From Actinomycetota bacterium (lineage in GTDB: Bacteria; Actinomycetota; Coriobacteriia; Anaerosomatales; UBA912), in assembly GCA_023488435.1 (NCBI GenBank), contig JAMDCK010000030.1, positions 20,177-84,176 on the forward strand: a stretch of DNA of 64,000 nucleotides, written 5' to 3'. Both the position numbers and the translations under genes were made by a program. The notes below the pieces were generated by a model. The model was not told the origin of the DNA, did not search any database, and saw only the letters and a program-made list of their open reading frames with translations. Below, piece by piece: positions 49,071-61,155 of the stretch; within the stretch, counting starts at the first letter, position 1, and each line of letters begins with the position of its first letter.

Positions 49071-50558
49071 TTACGAAGAGCTGTTCTTCGCTGTCCAGCG
49101 AAGATCGGGGTCCCGTGCGGCCCGGGCTTCGTCGAGTCGGCGAACCGCAGTGGTGTGTGGTGCGGCTTTGAGTGCATCAGGGTTAGCTTCGGCCTCGTCG
49201 GCAATAGCGAGCATTGCGGAGACGAATCGATCAAGCGCTGACAAAGGTTCTGTCTCGGTGGGTTCTATCATGAGGGCTTCTTCAACCAGCAAAGGAAAGT
49301 AGACGGTCGGGGGGTGTATCCCATAGTCGAGAAGCCGCTTGCCGATGTCGAGCGCTTTGACTCCGTTGGCCCTCTTTTGAGGCGAGGCCGATAGAACGAA
49401 TTCGTGCATGCATGTACGGTTATAAGGGAGGTCGTAAGCCGCTCTTAATCGAGACATCAAGTAATTGGCTGAAAGGACTGCTTGTTCGCTGATCGCTCGC
49501 AGCCCGTCTCCTCCAGAAGAGAGGATGTAGGCATAGGCTCTGATGAGAACACCGACGTTTCCATAAAACGATCGGACCCTACCAATGGACGCAGATGGCC
49601 GATGGATTCTGTACCCGTCGTCTCCATGCAAAATAACGGGACCAGGAAGGAAGGGCGCTAACTCCTCGCTGACGCAGACTGGTCCGGCACCTGGGCCACC
49701 GCCGCCGTGAGGAGTGGAAAAAGTCTTATGCAAGTTCACATGGAGAGAGTCGAATCCCATATCACCCGGCCTGGAGATACCCATGATGGCGTTAAGGTTG
49801 GCGCCATCACAGTACGAAAAAGCTCCACAAGCCCTCACGGCACGGGTGATTTCCTCAATGTTCAGGTCGAAAAGTCCGAGAGTATTCGGGTTTGTGAGCA
49901 TGACTGCGGCGACGTCTTCGCCTAGGGCGGCGTAAAGAGCATCGAGGTCGACACCGCCCGATGAATCGCTGGGTATCGTCTGAGCCTCATATCCACAGAG
50001 ACTGACGGTTGCGGGGTTGGTGCCATGTGCAGTATCAGGGATCAGTACCTTTCGCCTTGGATTACCTTTGCGCGAGTGGAATTCACGTATACACAGAAGG
50101 GCCGTATGTTCACCATGGGCGCCTGCGGATGGCTGAAGTGAGACGCCCGGAAGTCCAGTGATTTCACTCAGAGCGGACTGAAGTCCATGAAGTAGCTCGA
50201 GAATCCCCTGGACAGTACTCTCCGGCTGATACGGGTGCAGACCTGCGAAACCCGGCAACCGGCAAACATCTTCATTGAGTCGCGGATTATATTTCATAGT
50301 GCAGCTGCCGAGAGGATACATGCCAGTGTCCACCCCAAAGTTCACCGCAGCAAGTCTCGAGTAGTGGCGCATGATGTCGAGCTCGCTCACATTGGGCAGA
50401 TTCGGCGGACACTCGCGGTGAAGTCCCGGGAACATGGCGTCGATGGGGCCTTCCGAAGGCGAAGCAGAGTCAGCACTGGGGCAGGACCATTCAGGGTCGC
50501 CCAACTCGAAAATCAGCGGTCGACGAGTTGTGTCTGCTTGTCTTTCTTCCTCAATCAC
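49071..50558 (-). CDS. gcvPB: Glycine dehydrogenase (decarboxylating) subunit 2
   Basis: PLP-lysine context NLHKTFSTPHGGGGPG; 495 aa. Confidence 0.95.
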   Translation of the reverse strand: MIEEERQADTTRRPLIFELGDPEWSCPSADSASPSEGPIDAMFPGLHRECPPNLPNVSELDIMRHYSRLAAVNFGVDTGMYPLGSCTMKYNPRLNEDVCRLPGFAGLHPYQPESTVQGILELLHGLQSALSEITGLPGVSLQPSAGAHGEHTALLCIREFHSRKGNPRRKVLIPDTAHGTNPATVSLCGYEAQTIPSDSSGGVDLDALYAALGEDVAAVMLTNPNTLGLFDLNIEEITRAVRACGAFSYCDGANLNAIMGISRPGDMGFDSLHVNLHKTFSTPHGGGGPGAGPVCVSEELAPFLPGPVILHGDDGYRIHRPSASIGRVRSFYGNVGVLIRAYAYILSSGGDGLRAISEQAVLSANYLMSRLRAAYDLPYNRTCMHEFVLSASPQKRANGVKALDIGKRLLDYGIHPPTVYFPLLVEEALMIEPTETEPLSALDRFVSAMLAIADEAEANPDALKAAPHTTAVRRLDEARAARDPDLRWTAKNSSS

Positions 50559-51958
50559 AGTGTTTCAATCTCCCTCGCAAATGCGATCATCTCGGCTGCG
50601 GTACGCTTTTCAGTGACAGCGAATATTACGACATCCGAAAGATCCAATCCGGAGGCTGGACCAACGCCTTCAAAGTCGGCGATCCTGGCTGCAGAGACAC
50701 CGGCGATGTAGCCTCGGTCGATCATCTTGAGTTGCATCTCAGAAACATTTCCCCCGGAGTACCGCAGTGCAAACTCATAACCGAACGGCGCATCCCAAAG
50801 AGGTGTGAACTTGCCGGTTTCGAGAAGCAACCGGTACAAGAAACGTGCATTATCTACGCAGGCCTTCGCTACCTGAGCAAGGCCGTTGCCGCCAACGGCT
50901 GACAGATAAACCGCTGCAGCCAATGCGTTCAGTGAATGGTTGCTGCAGATATTGCTGGTCGCCTTCTCCCGACGAATATGTTGCTCTCTCGTCGACAGAG
51001 TGAGCGTATACGCCTCTCTTCCATCGACATCTACCGTTCGGCCGACGATGCGTCCTGGCATCTGCCGCAGGAATCGGCCCCGGCATGCGAAGAACCCGAA
51101 ACCCGGACCCCCGAACGACATCGGGCTACCAATGGACTGACCATCCCCGACGACCACATCAACACCAAAGTCAGACGGGGGTCTCAAGATGCCCAGAAGG
51201 ACAGGATTGACTGCAGCCACAGAGACCGCACCGATTCCGTGTGCAAAGGTCGTCATAGCGGCGATATCATCGATCACTCCGAAGAAGCTGGGGCTCTGCG
51301 TGACTACCGCAGCGACATCAACGAATAGGCTGGGGTCCAGGGAGTTTTCGATATGAGCGGCACTAATGCGACCCGTAGAAGTGTCTTCGGGCAGCTCGAT
51401 AAGAGAAAACTTTCCGCTCTTAGAGTAGGTCCTGATGGTTGATACCCATTCAGGGTGCATGTCGCCGACACACAGCACAGATTGCCTGGCGGTCACTCGG
51501 GTCGCCATGAATATCGCTTCAACGAGAGCAGTCGGCCCGTCGTACATACTCGCATTTGCCACGTCCATGCCAGTCAATTCACAAATCATGGATTGATATT
51601 CGTATAGTGCCTGCAATGTTCCTTGACTGACTTCCGGCTGGTAAGGCGTGTATGCGGTGAAAAACTCGGGGCGTCGTATCACGTGGTCAACGACGCTGGG
51701 AATGTAGTGATCGTAACAACCGGCACCAGCGAAACTGATTAACCTGCCAGCCGGGATATTGGATTCAGCAAGCGCTGAGAGGCGCGCTGAGACCTGCATC
51801 TCACTTTGTGCACTCGGTAGATCCAGCGGTCGCAAAAAGCGGACGCTCTTAGGGATATCCTCGAACAGGTCCTCGATCGAGTCACATCCGATCTGTTCGA
51901 GCATCTTCCTGCGTTGGCTAGCGGTAATCGAAATATATCGCATAGCTGAGGTTCTCAC
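50555..51958 (-). CDS. gcvPA: Glycine dehydrogenase (decarboxylating) subunit 1
   Basis: Typical N-terminus MRYISIT..QRRKMLEQIG, so the likely start is 51943. FTAYTPYQPE.SQG is present. Confidence 0.95.
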   Translation of the reverse strand: MRTSAMRYISITASQRRKMLEQIGCDSIEDLFEDIPKSVRFLRPLDLPSAQSEMQVSARLSALAESNIPAGRLISFAGAGCYDHYIPSVVDHVIRRPEFFTAYTPYQPEVSQGTLQALYEYQSMICELTGMDVANASMYDGPTALVEAIFMATRVTARQSVLCVGDMHPEWVSTIRTYSKSGKFSLIELPEDTSTGRISAAHIENSLDPSLFVDVAAVVTQSPSFFGVIDDIAAMTTFAHGIGAVSVAAVNPVLLGILRPPSDFGVDVVVGDGQSIGSPMSFGGPGFGFFACRGRFLRQMPGRIVGRTVDVDGREAYTLTLSTREQHIRREKATSNICSNHSLNALAAAVYLSAVGGNGLAQVAKACVDNARFLYRLLLETGKFTPLWDAPFGYEFALRYSGGNVSEMQLKMIDRGYIAGVSAARIADFEGVGPASGLDLSDVVIFAVTEKRTAAEMIAFAREIETL

Positions 51959-52338
51959 GCCTCGCCGACGTGAACCGAGTACCGATCGGCGGGCATCAGT
52001 GATTCCATCTCCTCAGGATCGCTCATCTGGATCTTGACTATCCAACCCTCACCGTAAGGTTCCGAGTTAATGATCTCAGGTGTGTCTGGGAGAGTCGAGT
52101 TTACCTGGACAACCTGACCCGTGACAGGTGCATACAGCTCTGAGACCGACTTCACAGATTCAACCTCACCGTAGACTTGCCCGGCCGATATAGTGCTACC
52201 GACTTCGGGCAGTTCGACATAGACTATCTCCCCTAGCTGTCTCTGGGCGAAGTCGGTGATGCCGATGGTGGCAAGCCCGCCTTCTCCAATCTTCACCCAT
52301 TCATGCTCAGGATGGTAGCTTCGATCATCCGGATTCAT
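51955..52338 (-). CDS. gcvH: Glycine cleavage system protein H
   Basis: HEWV motif and the lipoyl-lysine motif EVESVKSVSELYAP. Confidence 0.96.
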   Translation of the reverse strand: MNPDDRSYHPEHEWVKIGEGGLATIGITDFAQRQLGEIVYVELPEVGSTISAGQVYGEVESVKSVSELYAPVTGQVVQVNSTLPDTPEIINSEPYGEGWIVKIQMSDPEEMESLMPADRYSVHVGEA

Positions 52339-54679
52339 CGTTCTCCTTTCGGCAATTATTCTGTCTTAAAGAAGTGTCGTGCACGAATGGTGGATCCACA
52401 ACGATCAGCGGAGCGTGCTTCCGTCTGACCTGCAGATCAAGCTTCTGCTCCGCGACGGCGTACTCGATGGGAATGTAGCCAGATGCGATCCCGATAGAAA
52501 GCGATGGGGAGAATGTCCCACTGGCTACACGCCCAATTTCAATACCCTTCACCGAGATGCTCATTCCCTGCCTTGGTATCCCTTCGGTGGACGTGAAGAA
52601 AGCAAGCACTCGTTCAATGCCTTGTTCGCGAATCCGCCGAATTGCCTCGCTACCAACAAAATCATGCTTCTTATCTGGACAAACCCATCCGAGACGGGCG
52701 GATATCGGATCCACTCCCCTATCCATGTCTGAACCATAAAGATGATAACCCATTTCAAGTCTGAGGGTGTCGCGAGACCCGAGGCCACAAGGGGTGATTT
52801 CTGAGAACGAAAGCAGGTATCGCCAGATAGCCACTGTATTGGACTCATGTGTGAATATCTCGACTCCGTCTTCGCCGGTGTATCCGGTTCGAGAGAGGAG
52901 GACTGGCATGTTACCGACGGTGGACGGCGCAATGCTGAATCGCGCAGGAAAAGTGGTGTCTTTGGGCGTCATATGCTCAAGTAGCCTCATGGCGAGCGGA
53001 CCCTGCAGAGCTATCAAACCAGTGCGATCGGTCTCATCGATGATATCAAGATCGATGCCGTGCTTGCGCGCGCCCTCTCCGGCGGACTCATTTAGGCTCC
53101 ACCTGTCGCGGATCGTGTTCGCCCAATCGAAGACGATGTACCGATTCACCGCATTGGCCACAAGGAGATATTCGTTATCGCCAGTCCGATACACGATGAC
53201 GTCATCGATGATTCCCGCATCGTGGTCGCATATCAATGTGTACTGAGCTATTCCGGGCACTGAGAGACGAGACAGATCGTTCGTCATAAGGTACTGCAGG
53301 AAATCGAAAGCGCTTGCTCCGCACACCCGAAGCTGTGCCATGTGACAAAGATCGAAGATACCGCAGCCCTCCCGAACAGCCGAATGCTCCTGCCGTATAC
53401 CCATGTACTGCATCGGCATCAGATAGCCGGCGAACTCGGTCATCTGCGCACCAAGTGCGATGTGTTCATCGTAGAGCGGTGTTTTTGAAACCTGTGTGGC
53501 CAAGGGAACTTGCCCTTCCTGTGGACGGAAGAAGCGCTGAATGGCGATCCAAACTCTTTCGAACACTCCTGGCTTTTCTACCGAAACCTGTGAAACAAGC
53601 GTGGTCTGATAGATTAATCTATCATCTTGTACCAACCTTAGCGTACCAAGGCGATCGCCAGCAGCCACGGGAGCCTCGATGTGGGCAACTAGCTCAACCT
53701 CAGCCGTGACCTGACCGTCTGGCGCGAATATGTAGTCCGAAAAAGCGGAGTTCGAAACGGCAGGAATAGTGAGGTCGAGATAGTCGGTGACTCGCACTGA
53801 GCCGAATTCCTGGCCACGGTCCACGAATCTCTGGTATGTGAGATTTTCAAATCCCCAATCCATGGCCTGCTGGGCGATCACAAACCTTGCCCTCTCGCTA
53901 GGAGTCCCAAGAATGACCGCAAAAAGCTCGAGTCCGTCCCGGCTAGCCGAAGAGATTAACGAAAAGCCTGCGCGCGAGGTCCAGCCAGTCTTCAAGCCTG
54001 TTGCCCCAAGGTATTCGCCTACGAGCAGGCTTGTATTCTCTTCAGGCGGCCTCGGGCCAGAGCCATCCGGATCAAAGAATTCCAATGCTGATATCCTTCT
54101 GATCTCATCGCTCTGCATCGCATACCGAGCGAGTATTGCTAGGTCGCGTGCGGTGGAGTAGTGCCCGGCCTGATCTATGCCATGAGGATTCGCAAAGCGA
54201 GTATCTGACATACCTAGCCGAAGAGCCCGATCGTTCATGATTGCAACGAACTCCTCCGGGGAGCCTGCGACGTGTCGTGCCAGAGCGTTAGCAACCTCAT
54301 TTCCGGAAACCAACAGGAGGGCTTCGAGGCACTCCCTGACGGTCATGATTTCGCCAGGGCGGAGGTTGGCATTCGATCCCCCCGTTGCGATATCGGCTGC
54401 TGATATCATCACGGAGTCGTCGAGATTTGCACGATCGAGGACTACGATTGCCGTCATTATCTTGGTAATGCTAGCAATGGATCGACTCTCATCCGCGCCC
54501 TTTGACCACAATTCGTGCCCATTTTCTGAGACGAGCAGCAGTGCTTCGTGTGGAGTGTCAATCGAAGGACCGCGCGAGCTAGAAGTTGCCGAAAGTGGGT
54601 CATCGGAGTTGACTGCATAGGCTGAAGCCGGAGATAGGGCTATTACAATCGAAAGGATAAACACTAGCGAGTTATTCAT
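52325..54679 (-). CDS. gcvT: Single ORF fusing an exported D-alanyl-D-alanine carboxypeptidase (S11/PBP5-like) to aminomethyltransferase GcvT
   Basis: N-terminal half: signal peptide MNNSLVFILSIVIALSPASAYA, SITK, SGN and KTG motifs, and a PBP5 C-domain. C-terminal half, from KTPLYDEHIALGAQMTEFAGYLMPMQY, is a complete GcvT. No stop separates the halves. An in-frame TTG at 53503 preceded by AGGAAGGG could start a stand-alone GcvT. Confidence 0.8.
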   Translation of the reverse strand: MNNSLVFILSIVIALSPASAYAVNSDDPLSATSSSRGPSIDTPHEALLLVSENGHELWSKGADESRSIASITKIMTAIVVLDRANLDDSVMISAADIATGGSNANLRPGEIMTVRECLEALLLVSGNEVANALARHVAGSPEEFVAIMNDRALRLGMSDTRFANPHGIDQAGHYSTARDLAILARYAMQSDEIRRISALEFFDPDGSGPRPPEENTSLLVGEYLGATGLKTGWTSRAGFSLISSASRDGLELFAVILGTPSERARFVIAQQAMDWGFENLTYQRFVDRGQEFGSVRVTDYLDLTIPAVSNSAFSDYIFAPDGQVTAEVELVAHIEAPVAAGDRLGTLRLVQDDRLIYQTTLVSQVSVEKPGVFERVWIAIQRFFRPQEGQVPLATQVSKTPLYDEHIALGAQMTEFAGYLMPMQYMGIRQEHSAVREGCGIFDLCHMAQLRVCGASAFDFLQYLMTNDLSRLSVPGIAQYTLICDHDAGIIDDVIVYRTGDNEYLLVANAVNRYIVFDWANTIRDRWSLNESAGEGARKHGIDLDIIDETDRTGLIALQGPLAMRLLEHMTPKDTTFPARFSIAPSTVGNMPVLLSRTGYTGEDGVEIFTHESNTVAIWRYLLSFSEITPCGLGSRDTLRLEMGYHLYGSDMDRGVDPISARLGWVCPDKKHDFVGSEAIRRIREQGIERVLAFFTSTEGIPRQGMSISVKGIEIGRVASGTFSPSLSIGIASGYIPIEYAVAEQKLDLQVRRKHAPLIVVDPPFVHDTSLRQNNCRKENDESG

Positions 54680-54773
54680 TATGTCGGATATACTTATGCC
54701 ATGGGTACTGATTTTGATCACGGGTCGATCCATTTCGACGAGGGAAACTCATGACGCACTCGGTCAGCGAACA

Positions 54774-55142
54774 GTGAACCACACAGGGCACGAAACATCC
54801 AAGTGTAATTCCGACGCAACGGATTGCCAGGGCGGATTCTCGCTGTTTGAGCTCATGGCGGTCCTAGCCATCCTCGCGGTGTTGCTGACTATCGCGGTGG
54901 CGTCGTTCGCGCATGCAACCTCTAGCACACACCGAATGACCTGCCTTGCCAACCAGCGTACCCTCAACGCTGCGGTGCAGGCTTTTCGTGCGGACAACGA
55001 TGGGGTCAACATTCAGACAATCCTGGACCTTGAGCCCTACATCAACAACCTGACCTCGGCGACTCAATGTCCAGCGGACCCACAAGTGTCGCTCGAACTG
55101 GATCCCGCCTCTCAGCAGATCACTTGCCCCAACCACCAGTAA
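54774..55142 (+). CDS. Type IV pilin-like (prepilin-type N-terminal cleavage/methylation) protein
   Basis: Class III signal ...CQGG|FSLFELMAVLAILAVLLTIAVASF with Glu at +5. The ORF is open from 54681. The GTG at 54774 gives a 21-aa leader and avoids overlap with the divergent dac gene. Confidence 0.7.
   Translation: MNHTGHETSKCNSDATDCQGGFSLFELMAVLAILAVLLTIAVASFAHATSSTHRMTCLANQRTLNAAVQAFRADNDGVNIQTILDLEPYINNLTSATQCPADPQVSLELDPASQQITCPNHQ

Positions 55143-61078: not shown

Positions 61079-61155
<77 letters not shown>

What the first reader, a model, noticed from the sequence alone, without database searches (positions are those of the whole stretch)
52325..54679. Exported D-Ala-D-Ala carboxypeptidase and cytoplasmic GcvT encoded as one uninterrupted ORF
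The ORF begins with a classical signal peptide (…ALSPASAYA|V) and a complete S11 penicillin-binding carboxypeptidase (SITK, SGN, KTG, PBP5 C-domain). Without any stop it continues into a complete aminomethyltransferase (KTPLYDEHIALGAQM…) that heads the gcvH-gcvPA-gcvPB-lipoate ligase operon. GcvT needs cytoplasmic tetrahydrofolate and lipoyl-GcvH, so a covalent fusion to a secreted domain is topologically contradictory. There are three possible explanations. First, GcvT may be made separately from the in-frame TTG at 53503, which has AGGAAGGG 9 nt upstream, making it a nested gene inside a read-through ORF. Second, a lost stop codon or sequencing error may lie at the junction. Third, it may be a genuine fusion with uncleaved anchoring. 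No glycine riboswitch is visible where gcvT operons often carry one.
Basis: partly seen in the sequence, partly recalled or inferred. Interest (0 to 1): 0.6.

Follow-up and report, generated by a model that had tools for sequence, protein, structure and literature searches.

The report
Stop-codon-loss SNP merges dac and gcvT
The long "carboxypeptidase plus GcvT" reading frame is real, but it comes from one base change (TAA to CAA) that removed the stop codon between two normally separate, tightly packed genes in one strain of an uncultured actinobacterium, so it is an ordinary strain variant and not a new bifunctional enzyme.

Summary
On the minus strand, 54679 (or 54733) to 52325 is one open frame of 784 (802) aa. 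It holds a complete S11 D-Ala-D-Ala carboxypeptidase followed by a complete GcvT.

The cause is one base. Window position 53512 makes codon 53512-53510 CAA (Gln). Eleven contigs from other samples are 99.6-99.98% identical over 1.8-7.2 kb, and all read TAA there. They encode a 389-aa Dac ending ...RFFRPQEG* and a 392-aa GcvT starting at TTG 53503, six bases after the stop. One of these contigs differs from the window only at this base over 4.3 kb.

The CAA allele is not a sequencing error. It recurs in five fetched, independently assembled runs from two SRA accession series and in two NCBI MAG proteins.

More distant relatives (40-75% identity) all keep dac and gcvT separate but adjacent, with an ATGA overlap or a 32-nt gap. 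A search of 1.84 billion protein representatives found nothing that matches both halves.

GcvT is most likely still made from its own TTG. Its Shine-Dalgarno pairing (-7.0 kcal/mol) is the same in both alleles. The read-through fusion is probably a minor, tolerated by-product. No glycine riboswitch is present. Interest is low.

The parts
53510..53512 (-). CAA (Gln) codon at the position of the ancestral dac stop codon TAA. The stop-loss SNP is at window position 53512: C on the coding strand, G on the + strand.
   Evidence: the window and L006-L008 read GGG CAA GTT CCC TTG, while 11 other loci read GGG TAA GTT CCC TTG. Searches place the SNP at 53512.
53513..54733 (-). dac, an S11 D-Ala-D-Ala carboxypeptidase of the PBP5/6 type. 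It is 407 aa from ATG 54733 or 389 aa from ATG 54679, and ends ...RFFRPQEG in strains that keep the stop.
   Evidence: P0123/P0124/P0130 are 389 aa; L012 is called at 407 aa.
54614..54679 (-). Signal-peptide-like N-terminus MNNSLVFILSIVIALSPASAYA, with predicted cleavage after A-Y-A.
   Evidence: highest Kyte-Doolittle 19-aa window (2.22). The A-x-A pattern is read directly from the sequence. No dedicated signal-peptide predictor was available.
53525..53566 (-). Amphipathic helix VFERVWIAIQRFFR, a PBP5-type C-terminal membrane anchor. It normally sits 5 residues from the Dac C-terminus.
   Evidence: largest helical hydrophobic moment in the whole 802-aa protein (0.78). The same segment is conserved at or near the C-terminus of homologues P0002, P0003, P0006 and P0010.
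53513..53520 (-). Shine-Dalgarno sequence AGGAAGGG of gcvT, lying inside the last dac codons.
   Evidence: duplex energy with the 16S 3' end is -7.0 kcal/mol in both the CAA and TAA alleles. This is comparable to gcvH, gcvPA and gcvPB (-6.5 to -9.0).
52325..53503 (-). gcvT proper, 392 aa from TTG 53503 (M/L-ATQVSKTPLYDEH...).
   Evidence: P0121, P0127 and P0129 are called from this TTG in the TAA strains. GcvT model position 2 aligns 3 residues after it.
51955..52338 (-). gcvH (127 aa). It overlaps the end of gcvT by 14 nt.
   Evidence: PF01597.
49071..51958 (-). gcvPA and gcvPB (GDC-P subunits 1 and 2). A lipoate-protein ligase gene follows.

Best explanation
Normal layout in this species. 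dac (exported S11 carboxypeptidase) and gcvT are separate, co-oriented genes. The junction reads dac-TAA, a 6-nt spacer GTTCCC, then the gcvT start TTG, with gcvT's SD inside the last dac codons. In this species the stop and the start happen to be in the same frame.

The change in the window's strain. A single T-to-C transition at 53512 turned TAA into CAA, so the dac frame now runs straight into gcvT.

Shown: the SNP, its polarity (TAA is ancestral), its recurrence in independent assemblies, and the unchanged SD and start of gcvT.

Inferred:
- Functional cytoplasmic GcvT is still made by independent initiation at TTG 53503.
- Ribosomes that started on dac now produce some pre-Dac-GcvT read-through protein of 784/802 aa.
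- Neither candidate dac start has a detectable SD, so this protein is probably made at a low level.
- The fusion is probably non-functional for glycine cleavage. It would either be exported away from tetrahydrofolate and H-protein, or stall in export and be degraded.
- The allele is therefore a tolerated, neutral to mildly deleterious strain polymorphism.
For: Junction and haplotypes:
- the same 90% cluster holds fused proteins (784/802 aa) and split proteins (Dac 389 aa ending PQEG; GcvT 392 aa starting M/L-ATQVSK).
- the junction DNA is identical in 14 loci except for C versus T in the CAA/TAA codon.
- TAA loci are 99.6-99.98% identical to the window. L013 differs only at 53512 over 4328 nt, and at least five distinct haplotypes all carry T.

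Recurrence of CAA:
- CAA occurs in SRR22746111, -123, -128, -140 and SRR10252151.
- it also occurs in two NCBI MAG proteins.

Relatives:
- in UBA912 (75% identity) dac ends ...RLFRPQEG-TGA, overlaps gcvT as ATGA, and is in a different frame.
- two more distant relatives have a 4-nt overlap or a 32-nt gap with an AAGGAG SD.
- no protein among 1.84e9 representatives matches both halves.

Translation signals and protein features:
- the gcvT SD scores -7.0 kcal/mol in both alleles. The dac candidate starts score only -1.5 to -3.1.
- the amphipathic anchor that normally ends a PBP5-type protein sits immediately before the junction.
Against: - No reads, transcripts or peptides were available, so the relative amounts of free GcvT and fusion protein are unknown.
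- Loss of termination 6 nt upstream could remove termination-reinitiation coupling and lower GcvT output.
- The allele occurs in two accession series and on two haplotype backgrounds, so it is not strongly counter-selected. That leaves some room for a functional reading.
- The ranking of dac translation as 'low' rests only on the absence of an SD.
Confidence: 0.9

Rival explanations
1. Sequencing or assembly error: the true base at 53512 gives TAA, and the fused ORF exists only in the assembly.
For: The window derives from a metagenome-assembled genome (one search names it a MAG). TAA is the allele in most contigs. Both alleles occur within one SRA series, so mixed-strain consensus effects are possible.
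Against: CAA was assembled independently from at least five runs (SRR22746111, -123, -128, -140, SRR10252151). Ten, five and two contigs carry the fused products P0001, P0122 and P0126 respectively, and two NCBI MAG proteins carry it. A random error would not recur at the same base.
Confidence: 0.02
2. Genuine, selected bifunctional or tethered protein. The fusion is the functional form of one or both enzymes in this strain, for example GcvT held at the membrane by an uncleaved signal anchor or by the amphipathic helix.
For: The allele persists in two accession series and on two haplotype backgrounds. dac-gcvT adjacency with tight coupling is conserved across the lineage, so some functional link between the two genes cannot be excluded.
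Against: All other strains of the same species and all relatives keep a stop codon. In UBA912 the two genes are in different frames. No second Dac-GcvT architecture exists among 1.84e9 representatives. The only other apparent one, P0027, comes from a frameshift-ridden assembly. The linker is just the old 6-nt spacer plus the GcvT N-terminus. From general knowledge, GcvT needs cytoplasmic tetrahydrofolate and lipoyl-H protein.
Confidence: 0.04
3. Incipient loss of function. The stop-loss effectively disables Dac (mis-anchored or degraded) and/or lowers GcvT expression, and the strain is on the way to losing one of the genes.
For: The C-terminal amphipathic anchor is no longer terminal. Termination-reinitiation coupling is lost (sequence). 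Other strains show further dac variation, namely a 6-nt deletion and loss of ATG 54679 in L009, which hints at relaxed constraint on dac.
Against: All catalytic motifs are intact and GcvT is identical in amino acids to the split-allele protein. No further disabling mutations have accumulated on the CAA haplotypes, which are 100% or 99.98-99.99% identical.
Confidence: 0.15

Closest known systems
PBP5/PBP6-type low-molecular-weight penicillin-binding proteins (MEROPS S11; E. coli DacA/DacC/DacD)
   Same: Peptidase_S11 and PBP5_C domains, the SxxK / SxN / KTG motifs, an N-terminal signal peptide and a C-terminal amphipathic helix anchor.
   Different: Only 30-45% identical to any other described homologue apart from UBA912. 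In this strain the anchor helix is followed by 397 extra residues because the stop codon is lost.
Glycine cleavage system T protein (GcvT; TIGR00528 / PRK00389) in a gcvT-gcvH-gcvPA-gcvPB operon
   Same: Full-length match above the curated cut-offs, followed by gcvH, split gcvP and a lipoate-protein ligase.
   Different: No glycine riboswitch. The gene sits directly behind, and is apparently co-transcribed with, a cell-wall carboxypeptidase gene throughout this lineage.
Read-through fusion of adjacent genes by stop-codon mutation (the generic route to bacterial gene fusion; my own knowledge, not a tool result)
   Same: Two co-oriented, closely spaced genes whose stop and start are in frame become one ORF through one point mutation.
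   Different: The product joins an exported domain to a cytoplasmic enzyme and is polymorphic within a species. It looks like a raw mutational intermediate, not an established fusion.
Translationally coupled gene pairs (ATGA-type overlap or a few-nucleotide spacing)
   Same: Relatives show an ATGA overlap (UBA912, L020). The TAA allele has a 6-nt spacing with the SD inside the upstream gene.
   Different: In the window strain the upstream termination event no longer exists, so any coupling must be replaced by internal initiation.

Membership tests
S11 D-Ala-D-Ala carboxypeptidase (PBP5/6 type) | Peptidase_S11 domain above the Pfam gathering score | tested here: met
   171 bits against a cut-off of 27.6.
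S11 D-Ala-D-Ala carboxypeptidase (PBP5/6 type) | Active-site motifs SxxK, SxN and KTG | tested here: met
   SITK at 88, SGN at 143, KTG at 248 (802-aa numbering).
S11 D-Ala-D-Ala carboxypeptidase (PBP5/6 type) | PBP5 C-terminal beta domain and terminal amphipathic anchor | tested here: met
   PBP5_C scores 28.6 bits against 21.2. VFERVWIAIQRFFR has the highest hydrophobic moment. It is terminal in the TAA allele but not in the window.
S11 D-Ala-D-Ala carboxypeptidase (PBP5/6 type) | Sec signal peptide | tested here: inconclusive
   One search shows a hydrophobic h-region and an A-Y-A site. No dedicated predictor was available, and the true start (54733, 54679 or another) is unsettled.
GcvT aminomethyltransferase | Full-length match above the curated equivalog/subfamily cut-off | tested here: met
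   TIGR00528 311 vs 235.85; PRK00389 377 vs 300.
GcvT aminomethyltransferase | Genomic association with gcvH and gcvP | tested here: met
Evolved bifunctional fusion protein (Dac-GcvT) | Fused architecture conserved in orthologues or other lineages | tested here: not met
   all relatives are split; no representative matches both halves. P0027 is an assembly artefact.
Glycine-riboswitch-controlled gcv operon | Glycine riboswitch (RF00504) upstream of gcvT | tested here: not met
   no match in the window, L015, L020 or L021.
Translationally coupled gene pair | Upstream stop overlapping or within a few nt of the downstream start, with the SD inside the upstream gene | tested here: met
   for the ancestral allele and for relatives. 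Actual coupling was not testable.

The most novel reading that the evidence does not exclude
The stop-loss allele is maintained by selection and is not drifting. It occurs in two SRA series and on two haplotype backgrounds. The lineage-wide, translationally coupled dac-gcvT-gcvH-gcvPAB-lplA arrangement without a glycine riboswitch would then reflect a real functional link between peptidoglycan trimming and glycine catabolism, which the fusion strain exaggerates, for example by changing Dac:GcvT stoichiometry or by tethering GcvT at the membrane.
Probability: 0.05. Interest if true: 0.5.

Novelty: already known. Interest (0 to 1): 0.15.

Why it matters
The practical value is for annotation. The NCBI record names this 784-aa product simply 'GcvT'. 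In fact it is two genes merged by a strain-specific stop-loss SNP, and the real GcvT starts at TTG 53503. It is a clean natural example of the first mutational step towards a gene fusion, caught as a polymorphism among co-occurring strains, with an awkward exported-plus-cytoplasmic product. It could serve as a small test case for how internal initiation copes when upstream termination is lost. It opens no larger question.

Tried and rejected
- Glycine riboswitch or any other Rfam element at or upstream of the junction: nothing. The only hit was a sub-threshold SodB thermometer match at E=0.25, taken as chance.
- Internal promoter or terminator between dac and gcvT: consensus matches were at the level of shuffled controls.
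- A second Dac-GcvT fusion, P0027 (590 aa, carrying both Pfam domains). Its sequence is out-of-frame junk between a Dac fragment and GcvT. Its contig L023 is broken into many tiny ORFs, as expected of a frameshift-rich assembly, so it was rejected as an artefact.
- Long GcvT-containing representatives (518-685 aa) were checked as possible hidden Dac fusions. They are HemD-GcvT, LPG_synthase_TM-GcvT and DinB/MDMPI_N-GcvT, not Dac.
- Effect of the SNP on the SD or on local mRNA folding: the SD duplex is unchanged, and the local MFE is -15.5 vs -14.9 kcal/mol, a negligible difference.
- Literature searches for UBA912 and for stop-loss fusions returned nothing usable.
- NCBI taxonomy places the nearest named relative only as 'unclassified Actinomycetota', so the lineage could not be named more precisely.

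Full report
**1. Observation.**
The feature lies on the minus strand. The ORF listing gives one uninterrupted ORF, 54733 to 52325 (802 aa).

Domain matches in 802-aa numbering:
- Pfam finds Peptidase_S11 (63-278), PBP5_C (302-387), GCV_T (420-684) and GCV_T_C (708-784).
- NCBIfam GcvT models score above their curated cut-offs, and their position 2 aligns at residue 414.
- SITK, SGN and KTG are at residues 88, 143 and 248.
- The only strongly hydrophobic stretch is the N-terminal LVFILSIVIALSPASAYAV.
- The strongest amphipathic helix in the whole protein is VFERVWIAIQRFFR. It lies directly before the junction, where a PBP5-type C-terminal membrane anchor belongs.

The junction reads ...CAG GAA GGG CAA GTT CCC TTG GCC ACA CAG GTT TCA AAA ACA CCG..., which translates as ...Q E G Q V P L A T Q V S K T P.... 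TTG is at 53503 and AGGAAGGG at 53520-53513.

**2. What it is.**
A homology search returned the same 784-aa protein from NCBI MAGs, named 'GcvT, Actinobacteria/Actinomycetota bacterium'. Its 90%-identity cluster also contains split products:
- Dac proteins of 389 aa that end ...IQRFFRPQEG.
- GcvT proteins of 392 aa that begin M/L-ATQVSKTPLYDEH.

I fetched the DNA for 14 contigs. The junction is identical in all of them except for one base:
- The window and three contigs (SRR22746111, -123, -128) have GGG CAA GTT CCC TTG.
- Eleven contigs have GGG TAA GTT CCC TTG. They come from SRR25451290, JGI 3300031936, SRR2058407, SRR27443072, SRR22746118, SRR22746121, SRR13221995, DRR851275/287/289 and ERZ22146367.

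The variable base is window position 53512.

The TAA contigs are 99.6-99.98% identical to the window over 1.8-7.2 kb. L013 differs from the window at this base only, over 4328 nt. At least five different haplotypes all carry T. TAA is therefore ancestral, and CAA is a recent stop-loss transition.

**3. Not an error.**
The CAA allele was assembled independently from SRR22746111, -123, -128 and -140, and from SRR10252151, which belongs to another accession series. The last two sit on a haplotype that differs from the window at 54030. It is also in two NCBI MAG proteins.

All four combinations of the 54030 and 53512 alleles exist. This implies recombination among strains or chimeric metagenome contigs.

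**4. Relatives.**
- The nearest other species in GTDB representatives is 'Actinobacteria bacterium UBA912', at 75% identity. It has dac ending ...RLFRPQEG TGA with an ATGA overlap onto gcvT, and the two genes are in different frames.
- Two more distant relatives (Dac 40-45% identical) have a 4-nt ATGA overlap (GCA_029265315.1) or a 32-nt spacer with an AAGGAG SD (GCA_964607705.1).
- All share the block VanW/G5 ... dac-gcvT-gcvH-gcvPA-gcvPB-lplA.
- None has a glycine riboswitch.
- An exhaustive phmmer search of 1.84 billion representatives found no protein matching both halves. The top hits are a 407-aa Dac (78% identity) and a 381-aa GcvT (51% identity).
- Long GcvT hits carry other N-terminal domains.
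- The only other apparent Dac+GcvT protein, P0027, comes from a frameshift-ridden assembly.

**5. Mechanism.**
Shown:
- In the TAA strains, TTG 53503 is the only start that can give a GcvT with its conserved N-terminus, so this start and its SD are functional in the species.
- The SNP leaves the SD-anti-SD duplex (-7.0 kcal/mol) and the local mRNA folding essentially unchanged. That duplex is as strong as those of gcvH, gcvPA and gcvPB.
- The candidate dac starts have no SD (-1.5 to -3.1 kcal/mol).

Inferred:
- Free cytoplasmic GcvT is still produced from TTG 53503 in the window strain.
- Ribosomes that began on dac now read through into gcvT and give a low level of pre-Dac-GcvT.
- That product is unlikely to work in glycine cleavage. 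From general knowledge, GcvT needs cytoplasmic tetrahydrofolate and lipoyl-H protein. The fusion may be exported, stuck or degraded.
- The persistence of the allele in several samples argues that the cost is small.

**6. Comparison and novelty.**
Both halves are ordinary members of well-known families, and their membership tests are met. The 'fusion family' test is not met. The phenomenon is a familiar kind of event: a stop-codon-loss polymorphism merging two in-frame, tightly spaced genes.

The one mildly unusual feature is the lineage-wide placement of gcvT directly behind, and probably translationally coupled to, a cell-wall carboxypeptidase gene with no glycine riboswitch. I record this but did not pursue it beyond four relatives.

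**7. Verdict.**
The ORF is real, its cause is trivial, and interest is low (0.15). The annotation should be two genes: dac with a lost stop in this strain, and gcvT from 53503.

Noticed in passing
window 54679-54733 (-) and 54681-55142 (+): The dac start is unsettled. ATG 54679 (-) lies 1 nt from ATG 54681 (+) of a divergent prepilin-like ORF (N_methyl motif GFSLFELM about 50 residues in), which leaves no intergenic space. The upstream ATG 54733 (MDRPV...) is conserved in UBA912. In strain L009 (SRR13221995) ATG 54679 is mutated to ATC. Both points favour 54733, or another start, over 54679. The pilin-like ORF probably starts further downstream than called.
   Followed up: partly
window 49071-54733; L015, L020, L021, L024: The gene order VanW/G5 ... 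dac-gcvT-gcvH-gcvPA-gcvPB-lplA is conserved in relatives whose Dac is only 40-45% identical. The dac/gcvT junctions are tight (ATGA overlap, 6 nt or 32 nt) and there is no glycine riboswitch. This suggests that gcv is co-transcribed with a cell-wall enzyme gene in this uncultured actinobacterial lineage.
   Followed up: partly
window 54030 and 53512: All four allele combinations of these two SNPs, 518 nt apart, occur among contigs: Ser/Asn at 54030 crossed with CAA/TAA at 53512. This indicates recombination between co-occurring strains, or chimeric metagenome assemblies.
   Followed up: partly
L009 (SRR13221995), equivalent to window 53883-53888: This strain has an in-frame 6-nt deletion in dac (ERARFVIAQQ becomes ERAVIAQQ) plus several other substitutions, so dac is fairly variable within the species.
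   Followed up: no
L023 (ENA ERZ25039477 contig_128187): The syntenic locus of a higher-GC relative is shattered into many short ORFs, apparently by frameshift errors. One spurious 590-aa ORF (P0027) carries both S11 and GCV_T Pfam hits and mimics a fusion.
   Followed up: yes
P0152, P0258, P0166, P0156 (protein representatives): Other N-terminally extended GcvT proteins exist in public data: HemD-GcvT, LPG_synthase_TM-GcvT and DinB/MDMPI_N-GcvT. I did not check whether they are real fusions or similar read-through calls.
   Followed up: no
window 52325-52338: gcvT and gcvH overlap by 14 nt, and gcvH has a strong SD (AAAGGAGAA, -9.0 kcal/mol). gcvPA and gcvPB overlap by 4 nt. The whole operon is tightly packed.
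   Followed up: no
window 61082-61155 (-): A tRNA gene is the only Rfam gathering-level hit in the whole 64-kb window.
   Followed up: no
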